Below, piece after piece: positions 11,461-24,313 of a stretch of 64,000 nucleotides of DNA. The DNA is taken from the NCBI GenBank assembly GCA_049580385.1, contig JBAUPV010000030.1, positions 577,721-641,720 of the forward strand. The letters are read 5' to 3'. The position numbers and the translations under genes were made by a program. Numbering within the stretch: position 1 is the stretch's first letter; the number at the start of each line of letters is the position of its first letter. Under the pieces are notes generated by a model. The model saw nothing but the letters and a program-made list of their open reading frames with translations. It was not told the origin of the DNA and made no database searches. This DNA is from Desulfobaccales bacterium. Lineage in GTDB: Bacteria; Desulfobacterota; Desulfobaccia; Desulfobaccales; 0-14-0-80-60-11.

Positions 11461-12990
11461 CTAGCCGCTGATAGTCTTCTCCACCTGGATCTGGTGGGCC
11501 TTGAGCAGTTTCCACAGGGTTACCCGGCTGATGCCCAGAAGGCGGGCTGCCTCGCCCTTCCTGCCGCCGGTCTTGCTGATGGCCTCCAGGAGACGCTGCC
11601 GCGGCAGGGTGGCCCTGGGCGGCGACGCGGCCAGCCTGGCCTTCCCCGGCCCCTCCTTGGGGCCTTCTTTGGCCCGGCGGCCCAAGGCCGGCAGATGCTC
11701 CTTGCCAATGAGGCCTTCGGGGCAGAGCACAAAGGCGTATTCAATGACGTTGATGAGCTCCCGGACGTTACCGGGCCAGTCATGGGCGGCCAGAAGCTCC
11801 ATGACCTCCGGGTCAAGGCCGGTGATGGGCTTGCGGGTCTGGCGGCGGCCCCGTTCGATGAAGGCCTTGGCCAGCAAGGGGATATCCTCCCGCCGCTCCC
11901 TGAGGGGAGGCAGATGGATGGGGATGACCCCGATGCGGTAAAAGAGGTCCTCCCGGAAGCGGCCCAAAGCCATGAGACGGTGAAGGTCCTTGTTGGTGGC
12001 GGTGATCACCCGCACGTCCACCGTGATGGGCAGGTGGTCTCCCACTTTTTCGATGGTCTTTTCCTGGAGGACCCTTAAGAGCTTGGCCTGAGTAGCCAGG
12101 GGCAAATCTCCCACTTCATCCAGGAAGATGCCGCCGCCGTTGGCCGCCTCGAAGCGCCCCACGCGGGTGCGGTCGGCCCCGGTGAAGGCCCCTTTGACGT
12201 GGCCGAAAAGTTCGCTCTCCAACAATGACTCGTTGAGGGCGGCGCTGTTCACCTTGATGAAGGGTCCCTGGCGCCGGGGACCGAGACGGTGGATGGCCGC
12301 GGCCACCAGCTCCTTGCCGGTGCCGGATTCGCCGTAGATGATCACCGGCGCCTGGGATTGGGCGGCGGCGGAAATCAGGGTGAAGAGCTGCACCATCACC
12401 GGGGACTTGCCGATGATCCCGTGAAAGGCTTCCTCCTGTCCCAGCTCCCGGCGCAGGCTGGAGATGAAGAGCTGCATCATGTCCGGGGACGTCGAAGGCA
12501 AGGCGCGGCCCAGGTCTTCCCGGCTCAGCTCCCGGCGCAGGTGGGAGATGACGCGCTCTTTGGCCACCATCTCCCGGAGGTCGGTGAGGTTTTCGACTCC
12601 GGCCACCACCCGGCCGGCCCGATCCTGCAGGACGGCGCCATTCTTGAGAACCTGGATGTGGCTGCCGTCCTTGCGCTCCAGGGTGCATTGGCGGCGGCGT
12701 ACTGAGCCGCCCCGGAACAGCTCGCACTCCTTCCTCCCCCCCCGGCTTCCCGCATCCAGACAGTTTGGACACCTGAGGATGGTACAGGGTTGGCCTAGCA
12801 GGTCTTCCCGGCTGTAGCCGGTGATCTCCTCCAGGGCGGCATTGACTGCCAGGATGGCGCCCTGGGGGTCCACGATCAACAGGCCGTCCATCATGGTATC
12901 GATGACGGTCTTCCAAAACCCTTCCGGTTCCTGGCCGAATAGATTGTCCTTCAGGTGCGCCAGTGAGTCGGCGGGGGTCTCTTGGCTCAT
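11461..12990 (-). CDS. Sigma-54-dependent transcriptional activator with N-terminal PAS domain
   Basis: PAS (LLIVDPQGAILAVNAALEEITGYSREDLLGQPC) followed by a Cys-rich stretch (CTILRCPNCLD...C). AAA+ GESGTGKE, GAFTGA, IFLDEV. C-terminal HTH LLGISRVTLWKLLK. Confidence 0.9.
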   Translation of the reverse strand: MSQETPADSLAHLKDNLFGQEPEGFWKTVIDTMMDGLLIVDPQGAILAVNAALEEITGYSREDLLGQPCTILRCPNCLDAGSRGGRKECELFRGGSVRRRQCTLERKDGSHIQVLKNGAVLQDRAGRVVAGVENLTDLREMVAKERVISHLRRELSREDLGRALPSTSPDMMQLFISSLRRELGQEEAFHGIIGKSPVMVQLFTLISAAAQSQAPVIIYGESGTGKELVAAAIHRLGPRRQGPFIKVNSAALNESLLESELFGHVKGAFTGADRTRVGRFEAANGGGIFLDEVGDLPLATQAKLLRVLQEKTIEKVGDHLPITVDVRVITATNKDLHRLMALGRFREDLFYRIGVIPIHLPPLRERREDIPLLAKAFIERGRRQTRKPITGLDPEVMELLAAHDWPGNVRELINVIEYAFVLCPEGLIGKEHLPALGRRAKEGPKEGPGKARLAASPPRATLPRQRLLEAISKTGGRKGEAARLLGISRVTLWKLLKAHQIQVEKTISG

Positions 12991-13056
12991 AGGTCCTCCG
13001 CCCGGGGAGGGAGGTCGAATTCCCCAGGTTAAATGTTGGCGTTGCAGCCATTAACC

Positions 13057-13082
13057 AATGTTAACCATAAACCATTAACATT
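13057..13082. promoter_or_regulatory. Inverted repeat, candidate activator-binding site (UAS)
   Basis: AATGTTAA-N10-TTAACATT, perfect 8-bp arms. About 95 bp upstream of the -24 element at 13162 and 67 bp upstream of the divergent activator gene. Confidence 0.4.
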
Positions 13083-13134
13083 GTCAACAAGCGCCAGCGG
13101 CAGTTGTCATTATGTGATGTAATAACAGTATGTT

Positions 13135-13147
13135 AATCAAAATATAA
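13135..13147 (+). promoter_or_regulatory. IHF-like site between the UAS and the -24/-12
   Basis: AATCAAAATATAA against consensus WATCAANNNNTTR; one mismatch in the TTR part. Confidence 0.3.
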
Positions 13148-13161
13148 CTATTTCTTAACCT

Positions 13162-13177
13162 TGGCAGACTTCTTGCT
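13162..13177 (+). promoter_or_regulatory. Sigma-54 (-24/-12) promoter
   Basis: TGGCAGACTTCTTGCT against consensus TGGCAC-N5-TTGCW. GG at 13163-13164 and GC at 13175-13176 have the exact 12-nt offset. Divergent from a sigma-54 activator gene. Confidence 0.65.
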
Positions 13178-13307
13178 GTTCATCGTTAGACGGGGAAGCG
13201 CGGGTTGAACTGCCGCCCCAGACCGCACCCCACCGAGCCAACCTGCGACGGGAGAGGCCCGGGGAAATTTCTTGGAAAATATCTTACCTAAGGGACCTGA
13301 CTGAGCC

Positions 13308-13550
13308 ATGAAGAAAGCTCCGAACCTCGAGCCGAAATTGTTTGTCACTGACTTGGCCGTCCTGAACAAGATTTACCAAGCCGCCAAACTTTGTTTAAAA
13401 AGACCTTCCTTAACCACCAAAATGGCGCTGGAATCGACCATTGCCGAAGCGGAACAGACATTTTCATCCCCCCAATATTGCCCCCTGGGAGGCCCCGGAA
13501 CGGGATACGAGGATTTGGTCCTGAAGAACCCCCGGCCCTCAGGGTATTAA
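13308..13550 (+). CDS. Hypothetical 80-aa protein (uncertain)
   Basis: First ORF downstream of the sigma-54 promoter, ending 15 nt before the Usp gene. Weak RBS, no recognisable motif. Confidence 0.3.
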   Translation: MKKAPNLEPKLFVTDLAVLNKIYQAAKLCLKRPSLTTKMALESTIAEAEQTFSSPQYCPLGGPGTGYEDLVLKNPRPSGY

Positions 13551-13565
13551 TTAAGGAGGTAAGGC

Positions 13566-14045
13566 ATGTTTCAGAAAATTTTGGTGCCGATGGATGGTTC
13601 GGCGCTGGCCGCCAGGATTATCCCCCAGGTGGCGGACCTGGCCAAAAGCCAAAACGCCGAAGTCGTCCTGCTCAATGTCTATCCCGACTGGGGCGAGGCC
13701 ACCTCCCCGGAGGTGAAGGCACTCATCGAAGGCGAAGTGAAGCAATGCGAGGCATTTCTGGCCCAGGCCGCCCAGGATTTGACGGCCCAGGGGGTGCAGA
13801 CCAAGGTTGCCTGTGTCCAAGGCACGCCGGCTCATGAAATTATCAATTATGCCAACCAAAACGGACTGGACCTGATCGCCATGGCCACCCACGGCCGGGG
13901 CGAAGTCGCCTGGGTCCTGGGCAGCGTGGCCGAAAAGGTGATGAGTCACGCCACCGTGCCGGTGCTGCTCTTCCGGGTGCTGGGGATTAAACCGCCGAAA
14001 ACCAAGGTAGATTTCCTGGACCTGCTCGACCGGGGCATTCCCTGA
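13566..14045 (+). CDS. Universal stress protein (UspA family)
   Basis: MFQKILVPMDGS...DLIAMATHGRG...GSVAEKVMSHATVPVLL, a classic Usp signature. RBS AAGGAGG. Confidence 0.85.
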   Translation: MFQKILVPMDGSALAARIIPQVADLAKSQNAEVVLLNVYPDWGEATSPEVKALIEGEVKQCEAFLAQAAQDLTAQGVQTKVACVQGTPAHEIINYANQNGLDLIAMATHGRGEVAWVLGSVAEKVMSHATVPVLLFRVLGIKPPKTKVDFLDLLDRGIP

Positions 14046-14115
14046 ACCCGGTGCCGGCGGGTCGCTGTATCCAGATCTTTTTGCCATATTCCCTAATTCA
14101 TTTCAGGAGGATTCC

Positions 14116-15279
14116 ATGCGAAAAAAAGGGTTGGTGATTTTGGGCGTGATTGCCCTACTGACGGTGGCGGCCACCCTGCTCTGGGCCGCGCCGTCTTTCG
14201 CCGACAAACTGTCCGAGGCCATTGCCCAGACACCCCAGGGCACCGGCCCGGGCATGATCCATCCCGGCGCCCCCAAGGGCTTTTTTGGGATTCCCGGGGC
14301 CCCTCACCATTTCTTCTTATTTTACATCCTATGGGGCATCTGGGTCGGCTGGATCTTCTCATCAGTAGGCGCCTTCGGCGGCATCATGGCCGGTGTGGGC
14401 CATATCAGTGTCTTCGGGCTCTCTGATTACGCCAGCGGTTTCAAAAATACCAGCCCCGGTTTGAACAAGCTGATGACCGATGCCATCCGCACCAGCAACC
14501 AGTATCTGGTGGGATTGTCGGCCTTGATTTCTTCCTTTACCTATTACCGCATGGGACGGCTGGTGCTGCCCCTGGGCTTATGTTTGGCCATTGGCGGCAT
14601 TCTCGCCGGCTACCTGGTCCCCCTGCTTACTGTGGGTCACATGAATGTCAGCCTCTATGTGGGCTTTTTCGGGGTCATCGTCTTCGCCGTGGCCTTCGTG
14701 CTCTTCTATGAAACCACATCTAAAGGCCAGGAGAAAAAGAAGGCTGCCAAGGCCGCAGCCAAGGCCTTTGAAGAAGCTCATATCAAGAAAACTACGCAGG
14801 TCAGCGCTGAGCATGTCAAAGGGGTGCAGGTCACCCATTGGGGCCTGAGCAAGATCTCTTTCACTTTTTATGGCCAGGAATTCTCCTTCAATCCCCTCTG
14901 GCCCCTGCTGGGCGGCTTTGTCATCAATGGCATCTCCGCCTTGATCGGGGTGGGAGGCGGCTTCCTCTATGTCCCTTTCCTCACCTCGGTGGCCGGTCTG
15001 CCCATGTTCATCGTGGCCGGCACTTCGGCCCTGGCGGTGCTGGTGGGCATGTTTGTGAACATCTTCAATATGATGGTGATGCGGCACGTGCCCGTGGATT
15101 TCCTTTTGATTAGCACCGAACTGATTGGCATCGCCATCGGCTCCGTGCTCGGTCCGCTCACCTCCAAGAACATCCCTGAAATCTGGCTGAAACGCATCTT
15201 CGTGATCCTGGCGGTGTACGTGGGCATCGGTTATCTCACCAAGGGCTTTATGGGTCATTCCATCTTACCGGGAATGTAG
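14116..15279 (+). CDS. TauE/SafE-family anion (sulfite/sulfonate) exporter-like membrane protein
   Basis: 387 aa. Two hydrophobic halves split by a Lys-rich loop (QEKKKAAKAAAKAFEE). Family-like block GVGGGFLYVPFLTSVAGLPMFIVAGTSALAV. Confidence 0.75.
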   Translation: MRKKGLVILGVIALLTVAATLLWAAPSFADKLSEAIAQTPQGTGPGMIHPGAPKGFFGIPGAPHHFFLFYILWGIWVGWIFSSVGAFGGIMAGVGHISVFGLSDYASGFKNTSPGLNKLMTDAIRTSNQYLVGLSALISSFTYYRMGRLVLPLGLCLAIGGILAGYLVPLLTVGHMNVSLYVGFFGVIVFAVAFVLFYETTSKGQEKKKAAKAAAKAFEEAHIKKTTQVSAEHVKGVQVTHWGLSKISFTFYGQEFSFNPLWPLLGGFVINGISALIGVGGGFLYVPFLTSVAGLPMFIVAGTSALAVLVGMFVNIFNMMVMRHVPVDFLLISTELIGIAIGSVLGPLTSKNIPEIWLKRIFVILAVYVGIGYLTKGFMGHSILPGM

Positions 15280-15343
15280 GAAAATCGAGCCAAAACAGAG
15301 AGAAGGTCCGGCCTGGTCCGGCCCTCCCTCTTGGTAAACAACC

Positions 15344-15937
15344 ATGGAGATGCCTTCCCTTTATCTCTTTCTGGATCCTTACCTGATTTGGTTTTACCGG
15401 CTGACAGGGCAGGGAGGGTGGAATTTTGTCATCGGCACCTCGGTGTTGGCCGTCCTGGCCATGCTGGTTGGTGAATTTACCTCCTCCCTGGCGTCTTTGC
15501 TGGTGCATCGGCACTTCACTCAGGTAGCCGGCGAAGCCAAGAAATATCAGGATTTGTCCATGGAGGCATTGAAGGCGGGTGACAGACCGGCCTATGAGGC
15601 GGCCAATAAACTGGCCAACGAGGCCTTCGGCCATGCCTTTTTCCAGCAGCTTACCATGTCCGCGACCTTCCTCTGGCCCGCCTTCTTCGCCTTGGCCTGG
15701 ATGTCCTACCGCTTTGCGGACCTAAAGTTCCCCGTGCCCTACCTCCATTTCTCCTTAGGGTATGTCGCGGTGTTCCTGTTTCTTTTTGTGGCCGCCTACT
15801 TTGTCTTTAAGCCGCTGAAGTACAGGATTCCCTATTTCCGCCGCATCAAAGCGATGTTGGACGCCTCCAGCCATGCGGCTCAGGAAATGAAAAGTTTTGC
15901 CGATCTGCCGGCGCCGGGCGCCGAGGGCAAGCCCTGA
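15344..15937 (+). CDS. Hypothetical integral membrane protein
   Basis: 197 aa with about 4 hydrophobic helices. Same strand and tight spacing within the operon. No motif recognised. Confidence 0.55.
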   Translation: MEMPSLYLFLDPYLIWFYRLTGQGGWNFVIGTSVLAVLAMLVGEFTSSLASLLVHRHFTQVAGEAKKYQDLSMEALKAGDRPAYEAANKLANEAFGHAFFQQLTMSATFLWPAFFALAWMSYRFADLKFPVPYLHFSLGYVAVFLFLFVAAYFVFKPLKYRIPYFRRIKAMLDASSHAAQEMKSFADLPAPGAEGKP

Positions 15938-16006
15938 AGGCGGAGGGCCGGCCTGCGCCTGACCATCCTAGGTTCTTATGGAAATAGTGATGGGTAAACA
16001 AAAGAC

Positions 16007-16015
16007 TGATATAAT
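16007..16015 (+). promoter_or_regulatory. Candidate extended -10 promoter (internal)
   Basis: TGaTATAAT at 16007-16015 in an AT-rich 100-nt gap, 30 nt upstream of the ATG at 16045. No good -35. Confidence 0.35.
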
Positions 16016-16044
16016 CAAAATAAATAATTTACAGGAAGGCTGCC

Positions 16045-18138
16045 ATGGCAAAGGAAGTTTTTAGCATCTGCTTTATGTGTACGCAGCGGTGCCCCATTCG
16101 CATCCTGGTGGAAAATGACGATGTGAAGTGGATCGAAGGCAATCCCCACGTGGCCGGCATCGAGGGAGCCCTGTGCGCCAAGGGTTCCGCGGGCCTGGGG
16201 CTGTTGCACGACAGCGAGCGGCCGCAGTATCCCATGATCCGCGTCGGTCCCCGGGGCGCCGGCCAATGGCAACGAGCCACCTGGGACGAGGCCCTCGATT
16301 TCGTGGCCGCCAAACTCCAGGACATCGTCCGGGAACACGGCCCCCAGAGTCTCATTTGGGCAGAGCGGAACAATCTCAACACCCACATTGTCAAGGCCTT
16401 CATGAACGCCCTGGGCTCCCCTAACCATGTCACTCATGAATCCCTGTGCAGGGGCTCGGTGATCACGGCTGTCAACACCCTGACGGGGTTCCCGTATGCC
16501 CCGGCGGACGTGGGCGTCGACTATGCCAACACCCGGCACATGATCATGTATGGCCGCAATCTCTTTGAGGCCCTGGAAATCAAGTCTATCAACAATCTCC
16601 TGGGCGCCATGGAGAAGGGGGCCAAACTCACCTATATCGACCCCCGGATCAGCGTCACCGCCACCAAGGCCGACCGCTACTGGATGATCCGCCCCGGCAC
16701 TGACCTGGCCCTCAACTACGCCCTGATCCGGACCATCCTGAAAGAGCGTCTTTACGATCAGGTCTACGTCAAGCAATGGGTCACGGGGCTCAAGGAGCTG
16801 GAAGCCTTTGTGGAGCCCTATACCCCGGAGTGGGCCGAGCAGGAGACCGGCATCCCGGCCAACGAGATCGTCGAACTGGCCCGGGAGGCCGCGGCCGTCA
16901 AGCCGGCGGTGGTCTTCCATTACGGTTATCGGGGCTCGCATCACACCGATGAGATCTACATACGCCGTTCCATGATCATCCTCAATGCCTTGATGGGCTC
17001 AATCGAGGCCAAGGGTGGCATATTTTTCAAAAAAACGCCCAAGGACGCCGGCCGCGGCGACATCGGCCGGTATTCCGCCCAGGTATTCCCCAAGATTAGC
17101 CAGCCCCGGTTTGATGGCGCCGGGGGGGCGGCCTTTCCCATTATCAATGCCTTCCACGGCAATGTCCAGCAGTTGGCCCATGCCATCCTGGATCAGGACC
17201 CCTATCCTATCAAGGCTCTGATCGCCAACCGCTTCGACCCCTTGGCCTCCATCCCGGACGCCGCCGCCACCCGGCGGGCCCTGGATCAACTGGACCTCGT
17301 CGTCGCCCTGGAGGCCAACTTCAGTGAAACCGCCTGGTACGCCGACGTCATCTTGCCGGAGTCCATCTATCTGGAGCGCTCCGACTGCATCCAGTTGGTC
17401 ACGGGCCTCAAGCCCGCGCTCTACATGCGCCGGCAGGCGGTGACGCCCCGGTACGACAGCCTGCCCGCCTGGCTGATCATCAAGAAACTGGCCCAGCGCC
17501 TGGGCCTGGAGCGGTACTTTCCTTATGAGACCATCGAGGACATCTGGAATTTTCAGCTTAAGAACCTGGGGGTAAAGATCGAGGATTTTGAGGCTACGGG
17601 CTTTGTGCCTCTGTCGGACAAGCCTATCCTCTGGGACCGGGAAAAGGGCATCAAGTTCAAAACTCCTTCAGGCAAGATAGAGTTGGTAAGTTCCCTGATG
17701 GAAAATGCCGGCATCCCCTCGTTTGTGCCTTACACTCACAGGCCGGAGCCGCCGGCAGACCATTTCCGCCTGATAGTGGGGCGCTGCGCGGCGCATACCC
17801 ACATCTCCACCCAGAACAATTGCTACTTGAACGAATTGGTGCCGGAAAATGAATTGTGGATTAATACCCAACCTGCCGGCCGTTTAGGGATCAAGAATGG
17901 GGCCTATGTCGAGGTGTCTTCGCCGTTGGCCGTTGGTAAAATTAAGGCGAAGGTGACGGACGCCATCCATCCGGAAGCGGTATTCATGCTGCACGGCTTC
18001 GGCAAGACGGTGCCGGCCCAAACCCGCTCCTACCACAAGGGCGTCAGCGACGCCCTGCTGGAGGAAAATGTTACCGACCCGGTGGGGGGCAGCCCGGGCC
18101 TACACGAGACCATGGTGCAGGTGCGATCCCTCAACTAA
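16045..18138 (+). CDS. Molybdopterin (bis-MGD) oxidoreductase catalytic subunit, PsrA/PhsA-like, no Tat signal
   Basis: 697 aa. The N-terminus starts directly with the Fe-S motif CFMCTQRC...C(AKG), with no twin-arginine leader. Candidate Mo-ligand region NHVTHESLCRGS. Typical MopB length and C-terminal beta-barrel region. Confidence 0.85.
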   Translation: MAKEVFSICFMCTQRCPIRILVENDDVKWIEGNPHVAGIEGALCAKGSAGLGLLHDSERPQYPMIRVGPRGAGQWQRATWDEALDFVAAKLQDIVREHGPQSLIWAERNNLNTHIVKAFMNALGSPNHVTHESLCRGSVITAVNTLTGFPYAPADVGVDYANTRHMIMYGRNLFEALEIKSINNLLGAMEKGAKLTYIDPRISVTATKADRYWMIRPGTDLALNYALIRTILKERLYDQVYVKQWVTGLKELEAFVEPYTPEWAEQETGIPANEIVELAREAAAVKPAVVFHYGYRGSHHTDEIYIRRSMIILNALMGSIEAKGGIFFKKTPKDAGRGDIGRYSAQVFPKISQPRFDGAGGAAFPIINAFHGNVQQLAHAILDQDPYPIKALIANRFDPLASIPDAAATRRALDQLDLVVALEANFSETAWYADVILPESIYLERSDCIQLVTGLKPALYMRRQAVTPRYDSLPAWLIIKKLAQRLGLERYFPYETIEDIWNFQLKNLGVKIEDFEATGFVPLSDKPILWDREKGIKFKTPSGKIELVSSLMENAGIPSFVPYTHRPEPPADHFRLIVGRCAAHTHISTQNNCYLNELVPENELWINTQPAGRLGIKNGAYVEVSSPLAVGKIKAKVTDAIHPEAVFMLHGFGKTVPAQTRSYHKGVSDALLEENVTDPVGGSPGLHETMVQVRSLN

Positions 18139-18156
18139 GTTTCCCGGAGGAAAATT

Positions 18157-18681
18157 ATGAGTCAGTATTATCTCATCCAGGACCAGAAAAAGTGCATCGG
18201 CTGTCTGAGCTGCGAGGTGCATTGCAAGAGCAATAAGGGTCTGCCCCTGGGTCCCCGCCTGGGCCAGATCATCCCCGTAGGCCCCAAGATGGTGGCGGCA
18301 GCCCCCCGCATGGGTTTTATCTTTATGCCCTGTTTCCATTGTTCCGAACCGTGGTGCGTGCCGGTGTGCCCCACCGGGGCGATGCGCAAGCGGCCCAAAG
18401 ACGGCATTGTTTACGTGGAGCAGTCCCTGTGCGTGGGCTGCAAAAGCTGTATCACCGCCTGTCCCTGGGGCGCGCCCCAGTGGCATCCGCAACTGGGCAA
18501 AGCTGTAAAATGCGACTACTGCATGGACCGCATCGACGAGGGCCTGAAACCGGCTTGCGTCACCAAGTGCGTCACCCATTGCCTGCAGTTCGGCCTCGCC
18601 GAGCAATTGGATACTACCCGGCGGGAACGCCTGGCCAAAGCGGTGGCCTTCGAGCTGGATACCGTGGTCAGCGGCCACTGA
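18157..18681 (+). CDS. 4x[4Fe-4S] ferredoxin-type electron-transfer subunit (PsrB/DmsB-like)
   Basis: CIGCLSCEVHC, CFHCSEPWCVPVCP, CVGCKSCITACP, CDYCMDR...ACVTKC. Confidence 0.85.
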   Translation: MSQYYLIQDQKKCIGCLSCEVHCKSNKGLPLGPRLGQIIPVGPKMVAAAPRMGFIFMPCFHCSEPWCVPVCPTGAMRKRPKDGIVYVEQSLCVGCKSCITACPWGAPQWHPQLGKAVKCDYCMDRIDEGLKPACVTKCVTHCLQFGLAEQLDTTRRERLAKAVAFELDTVVSGH

Positions 18682-18694
18682 GGTGAGGACGGAA

Positions 18695-21600
18695 ATGATG
18701 GTCGCCCAGTACGCCCCTATTCAGATTAATATCTTCACTTTTCCGGGCAAAGGCCTGGAAGAAGCCGAAGGCGTGCGAGACGCCTTTATGGCGGCCTTGA
18801 AGGAGCGGGCCCTTGACGAACTGGGCCCCCTGGACGTGCAACTGATGGGCTGGCGGGGCATCGAGGGCCGGGACGTCATGGTGGAGGTGCGCCAAAATGG
18901 CGACTCCAGTCTCTACGAACTGGTCACCCCGGATATGGCCTCCCGCATCGTCCAGAGCCACCTGGAGGAGCACCGGCCGGTGCAGCGCTGGGCGGTGGGC
19001 AAAGACTTCGAGGCTTATTACGAGGGCCAGACCGTCCGGATATCAGAACTTCTGGGAAAGATCGACCCGCTCTCTTTGGAGGATTACCAGGATTACGACG
19101 GCTACAAGAGCCTGCTGTCCTTTTACAGTCAGGGCTTCGATTCGTTTCTGCAGAAGGTGGTGGCCTCCGGTTTTTGCGAGTTCTCCCGAACCCGGAGCCT
19201 TCCTTGCGGCACCGCCTGGTGTACCTTCCGGGCGGAGAAGCAACGGCCCCTCCTGGTAGTCAATGCCGCGCCCCCCTTTCCTTCAGCCACCGCAGATTTG
19301 CTGCTCCTGGAGGGCTGTCCCCATCAGGTCTTGGAGGGCATTATCCTGGCTGCCAAGACCCTCCAGGCCGAGGTGGCGGTGGTCTACTTGCCGGCCAACG
19401 CCCCGCTGGCAGTGGAGCGGCTGCAAGCCGCCTGGACCAGGCTGACCGAGAGCCGGATTCTGCCGGAAGCCGTACCGCTGAAACTGATCATTATTTCCGG
19501 AGAATCGCGGTTTATGGTGGAGGACGAAAACCAGTTCATCCAGGCCCTGCAGTCTCTGCTGCCTCGGGACCTTCTTACGAAATACGGGGGTTCCCCCTTT
19601 CTGGTCCATAGCCTGGGCACCCTGGCGTCGCTCCCCTTCATCGCCCAGACGCCGGTCTCCGTCTTCCGGAAATTGGGGATCGCCTGCTCCTCCGGCACCA
19701 TGATCTTCCGCCTGATGGGCGCCGTGGAAACCCCCGGTTTTGTGGAAGTCGCCGTTTCCTCCACCCTGGAGGAGGTGATCAATGGTCCGGGGGGCGGCTT
19801 CCGGCACGGCCGCAAACCAAAGGCCGTCCTGGTGGGGGGGCCTCTGGGGGGCGTCTTTCCGCTGCACCTGCTAAAGCTCAGTCTGAACCACGAGACCCTC
19901 CTGGAAATGGGCGGTTCCCTGGCCCTGGGGACCATCCAGGTCCTCGACGAGCGGGATTGTATCGTCGCCCTGGCGCTGGAGCAGTTCGAATTTATCTTGC
20001 AGCAACCGGGGGCCCAGTGCTCCACTTGCCGCGCCGGCCTCCTTACGGTTAAAGACTTGTTGCACCGGGTTGCCTCAGGCGAGGCCGGCCCGGATGCCCT
20101 GGAAGAGCTGGAGCGCGCCTGTGTGGCCTTGAAGAAAAAGGCCGGCTGTCACCTGGGAAGCCAGGCGGTGAACCCCATCCTCACTTCGCTCCACTATTTC
20201 CCGGATGAATACCGGATGCACACGGACAACAAGCATTGTCCGGCCCGGGTCTGCCCCAAGCTCCTGCTGGCCCCTTGCCACGCGGCCTGCCCGGCCGGGA
20301 TCGACATTCCCAGCTACATGGCCCTGGTGGCTCAGGGCCGGTTCGTGGAAGCCCTGGAAGTTATCCGCCAGGACAACCCCTTTCCCTGGGTCTGCGGTCT
20401 CATCTGTCCGCACCCCTGCGAACGGAGCTGTGTGCGGGGCAACCTGGACCAGCCCCTCAACATCAAATACCTGAAGGCCTTTGTGGCCGATTATGCCACC
20501 CGGCACGGCGAATACGCCCCTTTGCAGCCGGAGGCGCCCAATGGCCATCGCGTCGCCGTGGTCGGCTCCGGACCCGCTGGTCTATCTTGCGCCCATTACC
20601 TGACCTTGCAAGGTTACGCGGTGACCGTCTTCGAGGCCCTGCCGGAGGCCGGCGGCCTCTTCATTGCCGGGATTCCCGAATATCGCCTGCCCCGGGAGGT
20701 GGTGCGCAAGGAAGTGGAGCTGATCCGTTCTCTGGGGGTGGAAATTCGGACCGCGGTGACGGTGGGCCGCGACGTCACCCTGGAGGAACTGCGCCGGCGA
20801 GGCTATGAGGCCTTTTTCCTGGGGATCGGGGCCCATCTGGGCTACAAGTTGAAGATCGAAGGCGAAAATGACTTTCCCCAGGTCTATGACGTGATCTCTT
20901 TCCTGCGTCAGGTTAACCTGGGCAATAAACTGAAGCCGGCGGACAAGGTGGTGATCATCGGCGGCGGCAACGCGGCCATGGACGCGGCCCGGACCTGCGT
21001 GCGCCTGGGCTGCCGGGAGGTTCACGTCTCTTACCGCCGCACCAAGAAGGAGATGCCGGCCCATCCCGAGGAAATTGAGCAGGCCCTGGAGGAAGGGGTC
21101 CAGATTCATTTTCTGACGGTGCCCATCAAGATCGGCGGCGAACAGGGCCGGGTGCAATACCTGGAATGCCTCCGGGCCGAGTTGGGCCGTCCGGACGCTT
21201 CCGGACGCCGCCGCCCCATCTCCATTGCCGACAGCAACTACTTGATCGAGGTCGGGGCGGTGATCACTGCCATCGGCCAGCAGCCCGATCTCTGCCCCTT
21301 CCCGGTACCGCCGGTGGAGACCAGCCCCTGGTGCACCATCGTCACCGAGAAAGGCAGTACCAGCACCAGCGTGAGGGATATCTTCTCCGGCGGCGACGCG
21401 GTCACCGGTCCGGCCACGGCGGTGGAAGCCATCGCCGCCGGCAAACAGGCCGCCCTGGAGATTCACCATTTTCTGTCCCGGGACCAGGGTCCGCTGCCGC
21501 AGGCCAGGCCCCAGAAGCGCGGCCGGGTGCCCTTCCTGGCCATCCCGGCCGAGGAGAAGATTGCCAACCAGCGGGTGCCCACGCCGTTTTTGGATATGGA

Positions 21601-22096
21601 ACAGCGCCGCCATAACTTCGAGCGGGTGGAACTCGACTACTCCCCGGAAGAGGCCCAGAGAGAGGCGCAGCGTTGCTTGCGGTGCGACGTCTGCATCCGT
21701 TGCGGCGCCTGCGAGCGGGTTTGCCGGGATACCATGCAGGTCTATGCCCTGAAGTTTACCCAGATCAGCCCCACGGAGCGGGTGCTCAGCGACTACCACC
21801 GGGCCCGGGAGCGCTGTATCGCCTGCGGCGCCTGCGCCCTGATATGCCCCACCGGGGCCATCGACTACCTGGAGGGGCCGGAGCACCGGGAAATACGCCT
21901 TTGCGGCACCGTCTTAAACCGCCTCGAGGAGCCCAAATGCCCCGGTTGCGGCGGCCCCTTGCCTCCGGTCCGCTATCTCGATTATGTCGCCTCCCACAGC
22001 GACGCGGTCACAGGCAAGCAGGTGCTGCGCCGGTTCTGCTCCGCTTGCGCCCGGGAAAAACGGGCCCAGGAGTTTGTCAACCTGGCCGGGACCTAG
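18695..22096 (+). CDS. Fusion flavo-Fe-S protein: NuoF-like (degenerate) + GltD-like NAD(P)H:FAD oxidoreductase + 2x[4Fe-4S] ferredoxin
   Basis: NuoF-like VVNAAPPFPS...LLLEGCPHQVLEGIILAAK. GltD-like CP...CHAACPAGIDIPSYM...NPFPWVCGLICPHPCERSCVRG, VAVVGSGPAGLSCA, VVIIGGGNAAMD. C-terminal CLRCDVCIRCGACERVC and CIACGACALICPTGAI. The ORF opens at GTG 18683; the ATG at 18695 follows GAGGTGAGGA. Confidence 0.8.
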   Translation: MMVAQYAPIQINIFTFPGKGLEEAEGVRDAFMAALKERALDELGPLDVQLMGWRGIEGRDVMVEVRQNGDSSLYELVTPDMASRIVQSHLEEHRPVQRWAVGKDFEAYYEGQTVRISELLGKIDPLSLEDYQDYDGYKSLLSFYSQGFDSFLQKVVASGFCEFSRTRSLPCGTAWCTFRAEKQRPLLVVNAAPPFPSATADLLLLEGCPHQVLEGIILAAKTLQAEVAVVYLPANAPLAVERLQAAWTRLTESRILPEAVPLKLIIISGESRFMVEDENQFIQALQSLLPRDLLTKYGGSPFLVHSLGTLASLPFIAQTPVSVFRKLGIACSSGTMIFRLMGAVETPGFVEVAVSSTLEEVINGPGGGFRHGRKPKAVLVGGPLGGVFPLHLLKLSLNHETLLEMGGSLALGTIQVLDERDCIVALALEQFEFILQQPGAQCSTCRAGLLTVKDLLHRVASGEAGPDALEELERACVALKKKAGCHLGSQAVNPILTSLHYFPDEYRMHTDNKHCPARVCPKLLLAPCHAACPAGIDIPSYMALVAQGRFVEALEVIRQDNPFPWVCGLICPHPCERSCVRGNLDQPLNIKYLKAFVADYATRHGEYAPLQPEAPNGHRVAVVGSGPAGLSCAHYLTLQGYAVTVFEALPEAGGLFIAGIPEYRLPREVVRKEVELIRSLGVEIRTAVTVGRDVTLEELRRRGYEAFFLGIGAHLGYKLKIEGENDFPQVYDVISFLRQVNLGNKLKPADKVVIIGGGNAAMDAARTCVRLGCREVHVSYRRTKKEMPAHPEEIEQALEEGVQIHFLTVPIKIGGEQGRVQYLECLRAELGRPDASGRRRPISIADSNYLIEVGAVITAIGQQPDLCPFPVPPVETSPWCTIVTEKGSTSTSVRDIFSGGDAVTGPATAVEAIAAGKQAALEIHHFLSRDQGPLPQARPQKRGRVPFLAIPAEEKIANQRVPTPFLDMEQRRHNFERVELDYSPEEAQREAQRCLRCDVCIRCGACERVCRDTMQVYALKFTQISPTERVLSDYHRARERCIACGACALICPTGAIDYLEGPEHREIRLCGTVLNRLEEPKCPGCGGPLPPVRYLDYVASHSDAVTGKQVLRRFCSACAREKRAQEFVNLAGT

Positions 22097-22418: not shown

Positions 22419-23582
22419 ATGTCGTATTACATGTATGACGGGTCCACGGAAGTGACTCCCTGGGAAAGGATGTTCGCCACCATGAATGGCGAAAAGCTTG
22501 ATAGGGTCCCGGTGCATCTCTACCCGCGCTGGACCGCTCTCGAATACCTGGGGCTTACCTTCAAGCAGTCATGGGATGATCCCGATCTGTATGCCAAGGC
22601 GCAGATCATGGCTCAGCAGCGGTTCCAGTATGACTGTGCCGTCGACTTCGATATGATGGGACCGGTTGAAGAAGCCATCGGTGCGACCCTCAAGTACCCC
22701 GAGGATGATGTCCCCCAGATTGCCGAGCCCTTCATCAAGACCAAAGAGGACATGAAGAAGGCCAAATGGAAGCTCGATCCGCGCAAAGACGGCAATATGC
22801 CCAAGGTTCTGCACTGCATCAAGAGCCTGAAGTCAGGGCTGATCAAGGCAGGCAACGGCACCCAGAAGGTGCCCATTATGACCTGGGGCAGTTGCCCTTC
22901 CCGGACCGCCGCCTGTCTGACAGGTTTCAAGGAGTGGTTCCTGATCGTCGCCCGGGACCCGGATTGGGCCCTCGAACTCATGCAAGCCGCCATGGACGGC
23001 TGGCTGCAAATGGTCATTGCCGCTCATGAAGCGGGAGCCGACTGCGTTTGGGTCAACGACCCGGTTTCCTCGGCCGACTGCATCTCCAGGAAACATTATG
23101 AAACCTTGACCCAGCCGTTTGAACGCAAGTTCATCGAGGCCATCCGGCGTGAAACCGGTATGAAGATCATCTTCCATCCTTGTGGGAACTGGCATGACCG
23201 TCTCGATCTCGTCTATCAGAACCAAGCCGACGGCTATTTCCTAGGCCCGATGAATATCGATCTTTGCACCCAAAAGGCTGTCGAGGTCAGAGACGCCGGT
23301 CTCAATCCGCACCTGAAGTTCCTTAACGGCAATTTCGGTGCGGCCACCAAGAGTTCTACGGCGGACCGGAAGCCCGTCCCTTATGCCACCACCCTCAAAT
23401 TCGGCACCCCTGAGGAACTTATCGAGGAGAGCAGGATTATCATCGAGACCGTTGAAGGCGGTGGTCTGCGCTGCATGCTCGGCCCCAACTGTTGGGAGCC
23501 GAAGGGGGCCGCTAACATCAACCGCGATGCGGTGGTCTACGCGGCGCGCCGGCACGGCAGTTACCTCAAAAAAGAAGAGTAA
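22419..23582 (+). CDS. URO-D-family methyltransferase (MtaA/MtbA/MtsA-like, Zn type)
   Basis: 387 aa. N-terminal ...ERMFATMNGEKLDRVPV... typical of the family. Zn motif H-x-C (IFHPCGNW) plus downstream Cys (LRCMLGPNCW). Confidence 0.75.
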   Translation: MSYYMYDGSTEVTPWERMFATMNGEKLDRVPVHLYPRWTALEYLGLTFKQSWDDPDLYAKAQIMAQQRFQYDCAVDFDMMGPVEEAIGATLKYPEDDVPQIAEPFIKTKEDMKKAKWKLDPRKDGNMPKVLHCIKSLKSGLIKAGNGTQKVPIMTWGSCPSRTAACLTGFKEWFLIVARDPDWALELMQAAMDGWLQMVIAAHEAGADCVWVNDPVSSADCISRKHYETLTQPFERKFIEAIRRETGMKIIFHPCGNWHDRLDLVYQNQADGYFLGPMNIDLCTQKAVEVRDAGLNPHLKFLNGNFGAATKSSTADRKPVPYATTLKFGTPEELIEESRIIIETVEGGGLRCMLGPNCWEPKGAANINRDAVVYAARRHGSYLKKEE

Positions 23583-23591
23583 ATCGGGAGG

Positions 23592-24236: not shown

Positions 24237-24271
24237 TGATCCCAAGTTCCCGGTAACCCGTAAGTGATGCC

Positions 24272-24313
24272 AATCGGCTATCTCGTCTTAAACGGGATAG
24301 CCGATTTCTTTTC
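24272..24313 (+). terminator. Rho-independent terminator
   Basis: AATCGGCTATC (24272-24282) pairs perfectly with GATAGCCGATT (24296-24306), followed by TCTTTTC. Lies 36 nt after the corrinoid-protein stop. Confidence 0.7.

What the first reader, a model, noticed from the sequence alone, without database searches (positions are those of the whole stretch)
11461..22096. Sigma-54 regulatory unit driving a cytoplasmic, NAD(P)H-linked PsrA/PhsA-like molybdoenzyme operon
A PAS-domain sigma-54 activator (11461-12990, minus strand) is divergent from a near-consensus -24/-12 promoter, TGGCAGACTTCTTGCT (13162-13177). A perfect inverted repeat, AATGTTAA-N10-TTAACATT (13057-13082), lies about 95 bp upstream, with an IHF-like AATCAAAATATAA between them.

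The co-oriented genes downstream are a small ORF, Usp, a TauE/SafE-type exporter and a membrane protein. Next come a Mo-bisMGD subunit with no Tat leader (the protein begins at the CFMCTQRC Fe-S motif) and a 4-cluster ferredoxin subunit. In place of a membrane quinol anchor (PsrC/NrfD type) there is an 1137-aa NuoF-like/GltD-like/ferredoxin fusion.

That architecture predicts a soluble enzyme running NAD(P)H to FAD to Fe-S to Mo. Its substrate is unknown; the TauE and rhodanese neighbours hint at a sulfur oxyanion or organosulfur compound.
Basis: partly seen in the sequence, partly recalled or inferred. Interest (0 to 1): 0.7.

Follow-up and report, generated by a model that had tools for sequence, protein, structure and literature searches.

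The report
Cytoplasmic NADPH-fed sulfur-type molybdoenzyme operon
A sulfate-reducer-type bacterium carries a sigma-54-switched gene set for a thiosulfate/polysulfide-reductase-like molybdenum enzyme that stays inside the cell and, in place of a membrane quinol anchor, has its own NADPH-oxidising iron-sulfur flavoprotein; the same unit recurs in hundreds of related species, and that electron-donor subunit is not mentioned in any paper I found in the searchable library.

Summary
The catalytic subunit has no room for a Tat leader. The -24/-12 element is the only match in the window.

Comparative data add support:
- The Mo subunit, the 4-cluster subunit and a GltD/NfnL-type NADPH flavoprotein are adjacent in 60 of 64 evaluable related loci. 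At least 591 matching stretches were found in the species-representative genome collection.
- Two further loci carry an intact NuoE/NuoF module in the same slot.
- Sigma-54 promoters and sigma-54 activators recur across the family. Some loci have a second promoter for a divergent TauE permease pair.

One correction: the NuoF-like half of the 1137-aa fusion is a decayed relic. Its FMN, NADH and 2Fe-2S motifs are lost. Only the GltD-like half can bind NAD(P)H.

The two halves best match the B and A subunits of the NfnABC/Stn transhydrogenases.

Best reading: a soluble NADPH -> FAD -> Fe-S -> Mo reductase of an imported sulfur anion, most probably thiosulfate. Published proteomics reports Tat-less "PhsAB-like" enzymes without a known electron donor, but I could not verify that they are orthologous.

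Verdict: a new variant of a known kind. The substrate is unproven.

The parts
11461..12990 (-). Sigma-54 enhancer-binding activator: Cys-rich PAS sensor domain, AAA+ domain (GAFTGA), Fis-type HTH
   Evidence: Pfam Sigma54_activat 9e-68, PAS 3.5e-12, HTH_8 6e-09. GAFTGA and Walker A seen in the translation. Orthologues lie divergent from the operon in related loci. The PAS cysteines are conserved among PAS-type orthologues.
13056..13083 (.). Probable upstream activator site: perfect inverted repeat CAATGTTAA-N10-TTAACATTG, about 105 bp upstream of the promoter. It overlaps a sigma-70-like -35/-10 match for the activator gene on the minus strand.
   Evidence: 9-nt arms, 100% complementary. (same repeat at about -104 in L001, L003, L004 and L040; TGTTAA/TTAACA variants elsewhere). 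(minus-strand TTGACA-18-TAACAT at 13087-13058). Binding was not tested.
13162..13177 (+). Sigma-54 -24/-12 promoter, TGGCAGACTTCTTGCT
   Evidence: Unique match in the window. Conserved GG/GC core with variable spacer in 14 of 18 loci with a divergent activator. Across the family such matches occur at 0.227 per kb upstream of MoA against 0.062 per kb in a coding control.
13308..13550 (+). 80-codon ORF in the leader; doubtful gene
   Evidence: No Pfam or NCBIfam hit. tblastn finds it only in L001, at 78% identity.
13566..14045 (+). Universal stress protein
   Evidence: Pfam Usp 6e-31. Found in the same position in a minority of related loci (L001, L002, L008, L010, L016, L017, L021, L022).
14116..15279 (+). 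TauE/SafE (DUF81) family anion permease, 387 aa, with multiple hydrophobic (predicted transmembrane) segments (8 or more in a simple hydropathy scan)
   Evidence: Pfam TauE 4.9e-19. Hydropathy profile. An orthologue is present in 36 of 59 evaluable loci, co-oriented in 25 and divergent in 11. Divergent copies have their own -24/-12 element.
15344..15937 (+). 197-aa membrane protein, a conserved partner of the TauE permease
   Evidence: No Pfam hit. 2-3 hydrophobic segments. Always next to TauE in 36 of 59 loci. A protein annotated 'transmembrane protein co-occurring with sulfite exporter TauE/SafE' is reported in PMC13490349.
16045..18138 (+). Catalytic Mo/W-bisPGD subunit of the PsrA/PhsA lineage. 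It is leaderless (cytoplasmic), has an FS0 motif C9-x2-C12-x3-C16...C44, and Cys135 is the predicted Mo ligand.
   Evidence: Pfam. NCBIfam PhsA 583 bits (cut-off 694) against 256 bits for the next family. Thermus PsrA 2vpw at 7e-120, with C135 aligned to C173. No upstream start codon. It sits in a leaderless clade in a neighbour-joining tree.
18157..18681 (+). Four-[4Fe-4S] electron-transfer subunit (PsrB/DmsB type), with no signal peptide and no membrane anchor
   Evidence: Pfam Fer4_11 3e-25 and NCBIfam DmsB 1.9e-42. Four Cys motifs and no hydrophobic segment. Adjacent to MoA in essentially all loci.
18683..22096 (+). Electron-input subunit; the probable true start is ATG 18698.
- Residues ~28-430: relic HydB/NfnB (NuoF)-like domain without FMN, NADH or 2Fe-2S motifs.
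- Residues 431-515: N3-like cluster region.
- Residues 516-935: GltD/NfnL-like domain with 2x[4Fe-4S] + FAD + NADPH site.
- Residues 996-1062: 2x[4Fe-4S] ferredoxin domain.
- C-terminus: conserved 5-Cys tail.
   Evidence: Pfam and NCBIfam PRK12771, 507 bits. PDB matches: NfnB/StnB for the N-terminal half, and NfnA, StnC and NfnI-L for the second half. Motif decay. Conservation per domain and per cysteine. Synteny. Start-codon comparison.

Best explanation
The region is one sigma-54-dependent operon (promoter 13162-13177, genes 13566-22096) under a divergently encoded one-component activator. The activator's Cys-rich PAS domain senses an unknown cytoplasmic signal.

The operon makes two things:

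1. **A permease pair.** A TauE/DUF81 anion permease and its small membrane partner move a sulfur oxyanion across the membrane.
2. **A soluble three-subunit molybdoenzyme.** NADPH reduces the FAD of the GltD/NfnL-like domain of the large subunit. Electrons then pass through its two [4Fe-4S] clusters and its C-terminal dicluster ferredoxin domain. From there they cross the four clusters of the PsrB-like subunit and FS0 of the catalytic subunit, and reach a Cys-ligated Mo/W-bisPGD site of the Psr/Phs type.

The most likely reaction is reductive cleavage of thiosulfate to sulfite plus sulfide in the cytoplasm, with the sulfite going on to dissimilatory sulfite reductase. Polysulfide, tetrathionate or selenite are alternatives that sequence cannot separate.

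The NuoF-like N-terminal half of the large subunit is a conserved but catalytically dead remnant. It probably serves as a scaffold, and may still hold one [4Fe-4S] cluster.

**Shown:** gene content, synteny, motif integrity and decay, promoter conservation.

**Inferred:** complex formation, direction of electron flow, NADPH specificity, substrate.
For: **Architecture and conservation.**
- MoA, FeSB and the GltD-like gene are adjacent and co-oriented in 60 of 64 evaluable loci. Two further loci have NuoE + intact NuoF + NuoG-N-like genes in the same slot. Two unrelated pyridine-nucleotide modules in one position argue for an NAD(P)H link.
- In the window the gaps between the three genes are 18 nt and 1 nt.

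**Cytoplasmic location.**
- There is no start codon upstream and the homologues are about 695 aa.
- The family sits in a clade of 22 leaderless representatives, sister to Tat-bearing ones.
- FeSB and Fus have no hydrophobic segment.

**Psr/Phs identity.**
- NCBIfam PhsA scores 583 bits against at most 256 bits for any other MopB family.
- Thermus PsrA matches at 7e-120, with the Mo-ligand Cys conserved.

**NADPH site.**
- The GSGPAG and GGGNAAMDAAR...YRR motifs are present.
- The best structural relatives are NfnA, StnC and NfnI-L. In those enzymes NADPH reduces this FAD and electrons leave through two [4Fe-4S] clusters (PMC11829005).
- All Cys of these clusters are 100% conserved in 64 long-form proteins.

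**Regulation.**
- Sigma-54 promoters are conserved.
- Sigma-54 activators are found in 38 of 59 evaluable loci, either PAS-type or NtrC-type with a PAS histidine kinase.

**Sulfur-anion link.**
- The TauE pair co-occurs with the enzyme genes, and divergent copies carry their own sigma-54 promoter match, suggesting co-regulation.
- Published proteomics of Dissulfuribacter thermophilus found a Tat-less PhsAB-like enzyme lacking PhsC, together with a TauE protein and its co-occurring membrane protein. All were more abundant during thiosulfate disproportionation, and the electron donor was unidentified (PMC13490349).

**Energetics (textbook values, from memory).** The thiosulfate/(HS- + HSO3-) couple is about -402 mV. 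NADPH (-320 mV) is far better matched to it than menaquinol (-74 mV).
Against: - There are no biochemical or expression data for this family.
- I could not verify that the published PhsAB-like proteins are orthologues of this MoA.
- PsrA, PhsA and SrrA cannot be told apart by sequence (PMC12998232; PMC10100899).
- PsrA His145 is Arg108 here, and the Arg332/His333 pair aligns to Tyr295/Arg296. The pocket therefore differs from the one solved structure.
- With NADPH alone, thiosulfate reduction is slightly endergonic under standard conditions.
- One close relative (L006) shows no GltD-like gene downstream.
- Hashimoto et al.'s genome-comparison table (PMC9751629) has several minus entries for the Desulfobacca acetoxidans type strain. 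The column meanings were not recovered. If one of them is the PhsA-orthologue column, the unit would not be universal even in the lineage.
Confidence: 0.55

Rival explanations
1. The enzyme is the same, but the sulfur or chalcogen substrate is different. It would be a cytoplasmic NADPH:polysulfide/sulfane-sulfur, tetrathionate or selenite reductase, used for detoxification or assimilation rather than for thiosulfate cleavage.
For: - The PsrA/PhsA/SrrA lineage contains all of these activities, and they cannot be separated by sequence.
- A Psr homologue contributes to tetrathionate respiration in Shewanella (title of PMC12949373).
- The GltD half also scores on the YgfK 'putative selenate reductase' model, at 350 bits, below its cut-off of 835.
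- A DedA/VTT gene and a rhodanese gene lie upstream in the window.
- All of these couples are easily reduced by NADPH (textbook potentials).
Against: - Rhodanese (6 loci) and DedA (13 loci) are not conserved with the unit.
- No sulfurtransferase of the Sud, TusA or DsrE type is conserved next to it.
- The conserved partner is an anion permease of a family known for sulfite and sulfonates.
- The only condition-specific data point to thiosulfate, and their orthology is unverified.
Confidence: 0.2
2. The enzyme runs in the opposite direction in vivo. It would condense sulfite and sulfide to thiosulfate while reducing NADP+, with the TauE pair exporting the product. That would make it a sulfite-stress relief valve.
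For: - The couple (about -402 mV, textbook value) lies below NADP+/NADPH, so this direction is exergonic.
- TauE was originally described as an exporter (cited in PMC3949148).
- A Usp gene is in the operon.
- Inducible sigma-54 control would fit a stress response.
Against: - The published up-shift was seen with thiosulfate as the substrate.
- Distant loci carry histidine kinases, some with a periplasmic Cache domain and, in 7 loci, a PhnD-like binding protein. That suggests sensing of an external compound to be imported.
- There is no direct evidence for either direction.
Confidence: 0.12
3. The large subunit still works as an Nfn/Stn-like, flavin-based electron-bifurcating or confurcating device. 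It would combine NADPH with a second carrier such as ferredoxin to reach the low potential of the substrate, rather than acting as a simple NADPH dehydrogenase.
For: - Both halves best match the B and A subunits of the bifurcating NfnABC/Stn complexes.
- The GltD/NfnL-type FAD is the bifurcating flavin in NfnSL (PMC11829005).
- The substrate potential is similar to H+/H2 and CO2/formate, which Bfu enzymes handle by bifurcation.
- The relic domain, a probable N3-like cluster and a 100%-conserved C-terminal 5-Cys site are kept under selection.
- Some loci have complete NuoE/NuoF/NuoG-N-like sets.
Against: - In Bfu enzymes the bifurcation site is the B-subunit FMN with clusters B1 and C1. Here the FMN and NADH loops and the 2Fe-2S ligands are gone, and no NuoE-like gene is in the operon.
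- No NfnS-like partner is present for the NfnSL mode.
- Short forms and one natural deletion (L002, lacking residues 1-336) do without the relic domain.
Confidence: 0.08
4. The Mo subunit is not a sulfur enzyme at all. It would be a non-redox or organic-substrate MopB, such as an acetylene-hydratase-like or hydroxylase-like enzyme, kept reduced by the flavoprotein.
For: - Acetylene hydratase is the second-best solved relative, at 3.8e-61.
- It is cytoplasmic and needs a low-potential reductant for activity (established knowledge).
- In the closest relatives, corrinoid methyltransferase genes lie downstream.
Against: - The PhsA/PsrA match is far stronger (7e-120; 583 bits) and full-length.
- The methyltransferase genes are conserved in only 5 of 81 loci.
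- A four-cluster subunit plus a dedicated NADPH module implies catalytic electron flux rather than occasional activation.
Confidence: 0.05

Closest known systems
Polysulfide reductase PsrABC of Thermus thermophilus (PDB 2VPW) and thiosulfate reductase PhsABC of Salmonella
   Same: The catalytic subunit aligns full-length (E 7e-120). It has the same FS0 motif and the same Cys ligand to Mo. It is paired with a four-cluster PsrB/PhsB-type subunit.
   Different: There is no Tat leader and no PsrC/PhsC (NrfD) quinol-oxidising anchor. Electrons come from a soluble flavoprotein rather than from menaquinol. The active site faces the cytoplasm. PsrA His145 is Arg here.
Tat-less 'PhsAB-like' enzymes lacking PhsC, reported in Dissulfuribacter thermophilus and Desulfolithobacter dissulfuricans (PMC13490349, PMC9751629)
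   Same: They are described as cytoplasmic Mo and Fe-S subunit pairs without a membrane subunit, in Desulfobacterota. The sizes are similar (PhsA-2 705 aa; PhsB 150-168 aa). A TauE protein and its partner membrane protein rise together with the enzyme on thiosulfate.
   Different: Those papers name no electron-donor subunit. One of the two D. dissulfuricans copies lies next to nuoA-C rather than a GltD-like gene. Orthology with the window's protein was not verified.
Bfu-type transhydrogenase NfnABC / StnABC (PDB 9N5U, 8OH5, 9BOV)
   Same: The N-terminal half of the fusion is homologous to NfnB/StnB (6e-67). The second half is homologous to the NfnL/GltD-like FAD-NADPH domain of NfnA/StnC (about 1e-107 to 1e-120).
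   Different: It is a mirror image. In Nfn/Stn the FMN subunit is active and the fused Fdh-like pterin domain is an empty remnant. Here the FMN module is the remnant and a genuine pterin enzyme of the Psr type is attached as separate subunits. There is no NuoE-like C subunit, and the two parts are fused into one chain.
NAD(P)H-linked cytoplasmic MopB enzymes (NADP-dependent formate dehydrogenase of acetogens, FdsABG, assimilatory NADH-nitrate reductases)
   Same: The logic is the same: a leaderless MopB catalytic subunit is wired by Fe-S clusters to a flavin/pyridine-nucleotide module. This is established knowledge; a fused FdhAB with an NAD(P)H/FAD domain is mentioned in PMC12142623.
   Different: The catalytic subunit belongs to the sulfur/chalcogen (Psr/Phs/Srr) lineage, not the Fdh or Nas lineages. 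The PhsA model scores 583 bits against 256 for Fdh-alpha and 167 for NasC.
SoeABC sulfite dehydrogenase and bacterial SreABC sulfur reductase (cytoplasm-facing sulfur MopB enzymes)
   Same: They are cytoplasm-oriented molybdoenzymes acting on inorganic sulfur (PMC10100899).
   Different: They form a separate bSreA/SoeA lineage and keep an NrfD-type membrane anchor (established knowledge). The window's enzyme groups with PsrA/PhsA and has no anchor.

Membership tests
Psr/Phs/Srr lineage of complex iron-sulfur molybdoenzymes (MopB) | MopB catalytic subunit with an N-terminal FS0 [4Fe-4S] motif plus the Molybdopterin and Molydop_binding domains | tested here: met
   Pfam PF04879, PF00384 and PF01568 all score above their cut-offs.
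Psr/Phs/Srr lineage of complex iron-sulfur molybdoenzymes (MopB) | Cysteine ligand to Mo at the position of PsrA Cys173 | tested here: met
   C135 aligns with C173 of 2vpw. It is invariant in 11 family members.
Psr/Phs/Srr lineage of complex iron-sulfur molybdoenzymes (MopB) | Closer to PhsA/PsrA than to any other MopB family | tested here: met
   NCBIfam PhsA scores 583 bits against 256 (Fdh), 198 (DmsA), 152 (ArrA) and 74 (TtrA). It is below the PhsA equivalog cut-off of 694, so this is not an equivalog. In the neighbour-joining tree the clade is sister to Tat-bearing Psr-like representatives (no bootstrap).
Psr/Phs/Srr lineage of complex iron-sulfur molybdoenzymes (MopB) | Four-cluster PsrB/PhsB electron-transfer subunit encoded next to A | tested here: met
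   Fer4_11 3e-25; four Cys motifs.
Canonical respiratory PsrABC/PhsABC | Twin-arginine leader on the A subunit (periplasmic active site) | tested here: not met
   There is no upstream start codon. The protein starts 8 residues before FS0. The homologues are about 695 aa.
Canonical respiratory PsrABC/PhsABC | NrfD/PsrC-type integral membrane quinol-oxidising subunit | tested here: not met
   The gene after B is the GltD-like flavoprotein in 60 of 64 loci. No NrfD hit was found among the operon genes. The membrane proteins present are TauE and a 197-aa protein of unknown family.
Canonical respiratory PsrABC/PhsABC | Thiosulfate or polysulfide reductase activity | not testable with these tools
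   This needs an enzyme assay.
Bfu-type NfnABC/Stn transhydrogenase | B subunit with a functional FMN/NADH site and the N3/B1 cluster | tested here: not met
   RGRGGAGFPT becomes EFSRTRSLPC. CNADEGDPGAF becomes VNAAPPFPSAT. GAGAFVCGEETAL becomes GESRFMVEDENQF. The first N3 Cys is lost. This holds across the family, while comparator proteins keep all motifs.
Bfu-type NfnABC/Stn transhydrogenase | NfnL/GltD-like FAD-NADPH domain with two [4Fe-4S] clusters | tested here: met
   Fer4_20 4e-23 and Pyr_redox_2 5.6e-25. 9n5u_A at 6e-111 and 5jca_L at 7e-100. Motifs and Cys are conserved.
Bfu-type NfnABC/Stn transhydrogenase | NuoE-like [2Fe-2S] C subunit | tested here: not met
   No PF01257 protein is in the operon. 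The thioredoxin-like N-terminus of the fusion has lost its Cys (GCxGxC becomes GWRGIE).
Sigma-54-dependent regulon (bEBP + -24/-12 promoter) | Activator with a sigma-54 interaction AAA+ domain carrying GAFTGA | tested here: met
   PF00158 9e-68. GAFTGA is in the sequence.
Sigma-54-dependent regulon (bEBP + -24/-12 promoter) | GG-N10-GC promoter element upstream of the regulated operon, conserved in orthologous loci | tested here: met
Sigma-54-dependent regulon (bEBP + -24/-12 promoter) | Upstream activator sequence bound by the activator | tested here: inconclusive
   A conserved inverted repeat lies at about -104. Binding was not tested. The IHF-like site is not above chance.
Sigma-54-dependent regulon (bEBP + -24/-12 promoter) | rpoN present and required; transcription start at the element | not testable with these tools
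   No rpoN was seen among the window ORFs that were scanned. This needs the whole genome and transcription-start mapping.

The most novel reading that the evidence does not exclude
This may be the founding example of a widespread, unrecognised enzyme class: soluble NADPH-dependent thiosulfate (sulfur-anion) reductases. At least 591 matching stretches were found in the species-representative genome collection. Such enzymes could supply the 'missing' cytoplasmic thiosulfate-cleaving step of many sulfate reducers and sulfur disproportionators.

The catalytic Psr/Phs dimer would act as a plug-in cytoplasmic module, wired alternatively to three partners: a GltD/NfnL flavoprotein, a NuoEF module, or, in outlying lineages, a Nuo-type proton-pumping membrane arm.

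In the boldest version, the retained Nfn/Stn-derived parts make it a flavin-based bifurcating or confurcating sulfur reductase.
Probability: 0.3. Interest if true: 0.8.

Novelty: new variant of a known kind. Interest (0 to 1): 0.62.

Why it matters
Thiosulfate is a hub intermediate of the anoxic sulfur cycle. Yet recent papers state that PhsAB enzymes lacking the quinol-binding C subunit have never been functionally analysed, and that their electron source is unknown (PMC9751629; PMC13490349).

The conserved GltD-type NADPH subunit, and its NuoEF replacement, give a concrete and directly testable answer: the electrons come from pyridine nucleotides inside the cell.

That changes how energy budgets for thiosulfate reduction and disproportionation are drawn, because the cleavage step itself would neither use the proton-motive force nor conserve energy.

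It also supplies a three-gene marker for metagenomic surveys. And it shows an evolutionary bridge between MopB enzymes and Bfu/Nfn transhydrogenases, with the decayed module on the opposite side from the one decayed in Nfn/Stn.

Tried and rejected
- **Hidden Tat leader.** Rejected. No start codon lies between the upstream stop and ATG 16045, and the family lengths are uniform.
- **IHF site.** One-mismatch matches are no more frequent than chance.
- **RNA element in the 377-nt leader or the 322-nt gap after the fusion gene.** No Rfam hit anywhere in the window.
- **Corrinoid methyltransferase genes (22419-24236) as part of the unit.** Rejected. They are conserved in only the 4-5 closest loci, although no terminator-like site was found before 24272.
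- **Rhodanese and DedA neighbours as functional partners.** Not conserved.
- **A functional NuoF/NADH site.** Rejected by motif comparison.
- **SoeA or bacterial SreA identity.** These form a different lineage and keep a membrane anchor.
- **Orthology with the Dissulfuribacter or Desulfolithobacter PhsAB-like proteins.** I could not show it. No supplementary sequences are held. A search seeded with the outlying representative P0221 returned only unnamed Desulfobacterales proteins.
- **Prior description of the GltD-like partner.** Eight full-text searches found none. The library lacks most subscription journals, so absence is not proof.
- **Structure prediction.** Not run. Sequence matches to solved structures were already at E <= 1e-60.

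Full report
**What is in the sequence**

The window has 59% G+C. It is 92-98% identical at the protein level to Desulfobaccales metagenome-assembled genomes (L001-L004).

- a PAS / sigma-54-AAA+ / HTH_8 activator on the minus strand (11461-12990), with GAFTGA present;
- on the plus strand, a doubtful 80-codon ORF, then Usp;
- a TauE/SafE-family permease;
- a 197-aa membrane protein without a Pfam family;
- a 697-aa MopB subunit;
- a 174-aa protein with four ferredoxin-type Cys motifs;
- a 1137-codon ORF with NuoF-like, GltD-like and dicluster-ferredoxin regions.

Comparison with homologues shows that the last gene more probably starts at ATG 18698.

**Cytoplasmic location**

ATG 16045 is the first start codon after the preceding in-frame stop, and it has a GGAAGG ribosome-binding site. 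Residue 3 aligns with residue 38 of Thermus PsrA, so the roughly 37-residue Tat leader is simply absent. Nearly all of the 120 best database homologues are 693-699 aa.

I built a neighbour-joining tree of 138 MopB representatives taken from an exhaustive HMMER search. The family lies inside a clade of 22 leaves. All of them have at most 25 residues before the FS0 motif. The clade is sister to a group with RRxFLK-type leaders. The tree has no bootstrap support and should be read as indicative only.

**What kind of Mo enzyme**

The PhsA model of NCBIfam scores 583 bits. That is below its equivalog cut-off of 694, but far above formate dehydrogenase (256), DmsA (198), ArrA (152) and TtrA (74). 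Thermus PsrA (2VPW) aligns end to end at E = 7e-120. Its Mo-ligand Cys173 falls on the invariant Cys135, while PsrA His145 is replaced by an invariant Arg108.

The enzyme therefore belongs to the PsrA/PhsA/SrrA lineage. It is not a canonical member: two defining features of respiratory Psr/Phs, the Tat leader and the NrfD-type anchor, were tested and are not met.

**The third subunit**

The C-terminal 620 residues best match the NfnL/GltD-like FAD-NADPH domain of:
- 9BOV chain A (1.5e-120);
- NfnA (9N5U chain A, 6e-111);
- 8OH5 chain C, which is StnC (7e-107);
- the large subunit of NfnI (7e-100).

The dinucleotide motifs GSGPAG and GGGNAAMDAAR...YRR are intact. Every cysteine of the two GltD-type clusters, of the dicluster ferredoxin domain and of a C-terminal 5-Cys site is 100% conserved in 64 long-form proteins.

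The N-terminal 520 residues best match the FMN subunits of the same complexes: NfnB at 6e-67, 9BOV chain B, and StnB. However, the residue-level alignment and a family alignment with intact comparators show four losses:
- the FMN loop (RGRGGAGFPT becomes EFSRTRSLPC);
- the NADH loops (CNADEGDPGAF becomes VNAAPPFPSAT; GAGAFVCGEETAL becomes GESRFMVEDENQF);
- the [2Fe-2S] cysteines of the thioredoxin-like N-terminus (GCxGxC becomes GWRGIE);
- the first N3 cysteine.

The relic is still under selection. It keeps 60-62% identity to the window protein, against 77-80% for the active half. C426, C446, C449 and C489 are 94-100% conserved, so one cluster may survive. A close relative (L002) lacks residues 1-336. 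Desulfobacterales-type proteins keep only the last 60-100 residues of this region.

The fusion is thus a mirror image of NfnABC/Stn, where the pterin domain is the empty remnant and the FMN site is active (PMC11829005; PMC10482914).

**Conservation of the unit**

A scan of one genome per species found at least 591 stretches encoding a relative of the catalytic subunit. They come from Desulfobaccales, Syntrophobacterales, Desulfobacterales and Desulfarculaceae. Cultured carriers include Desulfacinum hydrothermale, Desulfatirhabdium butyrativorans and two Desulfofundulus species.

Downstream of the catalytic gene:
- Of 64 loci with enough sequence, 60 have the GltD-like gene directly after the Fe-S subunit gene. 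Of these, 22 are in the long form.
- Two loci (L043, L062) instead have a NuoE-like gene, an intact NuoF-like gene (Complex1_51K, 149 bits) and NuoG-N-like Fe-S proteins.
- One locus has the GltD-like gene inverted nearby.
- One locus (L006) has none.

Two unrelated pyridine-nucleotide modules in one genomic slot is the strongest argument available here that the Mo enzyme is fed by NAD(P)H.

Upstream, of 59 evaluable loci, 36 have the TauE orthologue together with the small membrane protein, and 38 have a sigma-54 activator.

**Regulation**

The -24/-12 match is unique in the window, but on its own it is only weakly significant. Comparative evidence makes it convincing. In 14 of 18 loci with a divergent activator gene, a match of 9 or more of 11 positions sits in the intergenic region, with conserved GG/GC and a drifting spacer.

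The 9-nt inverted repeat CAATGTTAA-N10-TTAACATTG lies about 105 bp upstream. It is conserved in the closest five loci and recognisable as TGTTAA/TTAACA half-sites in others.

Across all loci, such promoter matches are 3.7 times denser upstream of the Mo gene than in the coding control. Where the TauE pair is divergent, there are two promoters in the shared intergenic region. One, TGGTATG-N4-TTGCT, lies 90-170 bp before the Mo gene. The other, TGGCATAC-N3-TTGCT, is on the other strand. This pattern suggests that permease and enzyme are co-regulated.

The sensor input is swapped between lineages. Near relatives have a PAS-AAA+-HTH one-component activator. Distant ones have an NtrC-type receiver activator with a PAS histidine kinase, some with a periplasmic Cache domain and, in 7 loci, a PhnD-like binding protein.

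The IHF-like sequence is not above chance.

**Mechanism proposed**

The inferred electron path is:

NADPH -> FAD (GltD-like domain) -> two [4Fe-4S] -> dicluster ferredoxin domain -> four clusters of the PsrB-like subunit -> FS0 -> Mo/W-bisPGD.

The substrate would be an anion handled by the TauE pair. Thiosulfate is the leading candidate for four reasons:
- the lineage the catalytic subunit belongs to;
- the permease family;
- the energetics. These are textbook values quoted from memory: thiosulfate/(HS- + HSO3-) at about -402 mV is a hopeless match for menaquinol but a near match for NADPH, once sulfite is pulled away by sulfite reductase;
- proteomics of Dissulfuribacter thermophilus. There, a Tat-less PhsAB-like pair, a TauE protein and a 'transmembrane protein co-occurring with TauE' all rise during thiosulfate disproportionation. 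The authors note the missing membrane subunit and leave the electron source open (PMC13490349).

Hashimoto et al. likewise state that PhsAB without C has never been functionally analysed (PMC9751629). I could not retrieve those sequences, so their orthology to this family is unverified.

Polysulfide, tetrathionate and selenite cannot be excluded, since the lineage cannot be subdivided by sequence. The reverse reaction, thiosulfate formation as a sulfite-stress valve, is thermodynamically allowed.

**Comparison with what is known, and novelty**

The enzyme works like other NAD(P)H-linked cytoplasmic MopB enzymes, such as NADP-dependent formate dehydrogenases and assimilatory nitrate reductases. 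The difference is a catalytic subunit from the sulfur/chalcogen lineage and an electron-input subunit derived from the Nfn/Stn family.

In eight full-text searches I found no description of the GltD-like partner, of the relic domain or of the sigma-54 control. The library omits most subscription journals.

I rate it a new variant of a known kind. The family is common and its A/B genes are routinely annotated as 'thiosulfate/polysulfide reductase chain A'. The donor subunit, however, turns an acknowledged open question into a simple enzyme assay.

**Limits**

Everything rests on sequence comparison. Complex formation, cofactor content, NADPH specificity, direction and substrate are inferred. 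The neighbour-joining tree is unsupported by resampling. Promoter scoring used a simple consensus count.

Noticed in passing
L046:12652-15450 (+) and 15533-17413 (+) (Desulfofundulus australicus DSM 11792): Here the GltD-like third subunit is a 932-aa protein with a C-terminal methyl-accepting-chemotaxis signalling domain (residues 778-928). It is followed by a dCache_3/HAMP chemoreceptor. This looks like a redox flavoprotein fused to a taxis transducer, possibly energy or sulfur-anion taxis coupled to this enzyme.
   Followed up: partly
L081:1-11238 (metagenome contig carrying P0221, a leaderless outlier of the clade): A leaderless Psr-like subunit lies between two four-cluster ferredoxin genes and before a NuoE-like gene. 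Directly upstream are NuoI/J/K-like genes and four antiporter-like (NuoL/M/N) genes. In Desulfolithobacter dissulfuricans, PhsA-1/PhsB-1 (GF1_30490/30500) are likewise followed by nuoA, nuoB and nuoC. This suggests Psr/Phs-type modules docked on Nuo-like proton-pumping arms that lack NuoEFG.
   Followed up: partly
L062:12760-17065 and L043 (Desulfobacterales MAGs): In place of the GltD-like gene, these loci have NuoE-like (218 aa), intact NuoF-like (593 aa) and two NuoG-N-terminal-like 2Fe-2S/4Fe-4S proteins after the Mo and Fe-S genes. That is a HydBC/Bfu-like input module. Thirteen other loci carry one such NuoG-N-like protein after the GltD-like gene.
   Followed up: partly
window 12690-12800 (-), residues ~66-103 of the activator: The PAS domain of the activator contains a cysteine cluster (PC...RC..C...EC...QC). 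At least four of these positions are conserved in nearly all PAS-type orthologues. This is reminiscent of Fe-S-binding or thiol-based redox PAS sensors. The ligand is unknown.
   Followed up: partly
window 22419-25760 and 44282-46171: These are the parts of a corrinoid methyltransferase system:
- an MtaA/URO-D-like methyltransferase (22419-23582);
- a corrinoid protein (23592-24236), followed by a strong terminator at 24272-24306;
- a pterin-binding MeTr-like protein on the opposite strand (24732-25760);
- further away, a RACo-type corrinoid activase (44282-46171).

Only the first two cluster with the operon, and only in the 4-5 closest relatives.
   Followed up: partly
window 40418-41608 (+): A YeeE/YedE-type 'sulphur transport' protein (PF04143, 1e-55). 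From memory, this family is implicated in thiosulfate uptake. It lies about 18 kb downstream of the operon.
   Followed up: no
window 27943-33689 (+): Two large multihaem cytochrome c genes (754 and 647 aa, with weak c3/c7/MtrC-like hits) are followed by Rieske and cytochrome b genes. This could be an extracytoplasmic electron-transfer module.
   Followed up: no
window 1041-2417 (-): A second sigma-54 activator, of the receiver-domain (NtrC) type, is encoded in the window. The organism clearly uses sigma-54 regulation, although rpoN itself was not seen among the ORFs scanned.
   Followed up: no
window 18100-18678 (-) and equivalents in 13 loci: A 192-codon antisense ORF fully overlaps the Fe-S subunit gene and appears 'conserved' across loci (cluster 8). 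It is a shadow of the conserved sense gene in G+C-rich DNA, not a gene. It displaced the true gene in my greedy ORF selection.
   Followed up: yes
window 5167-6780 (-): A 537-aa protein combines a thymidylate-synthase-like region with a C-terminal pterin-binding DUF4346 domain. It is conserved upstream in a few close relatives. Its function is unclear.
   Followed up: no
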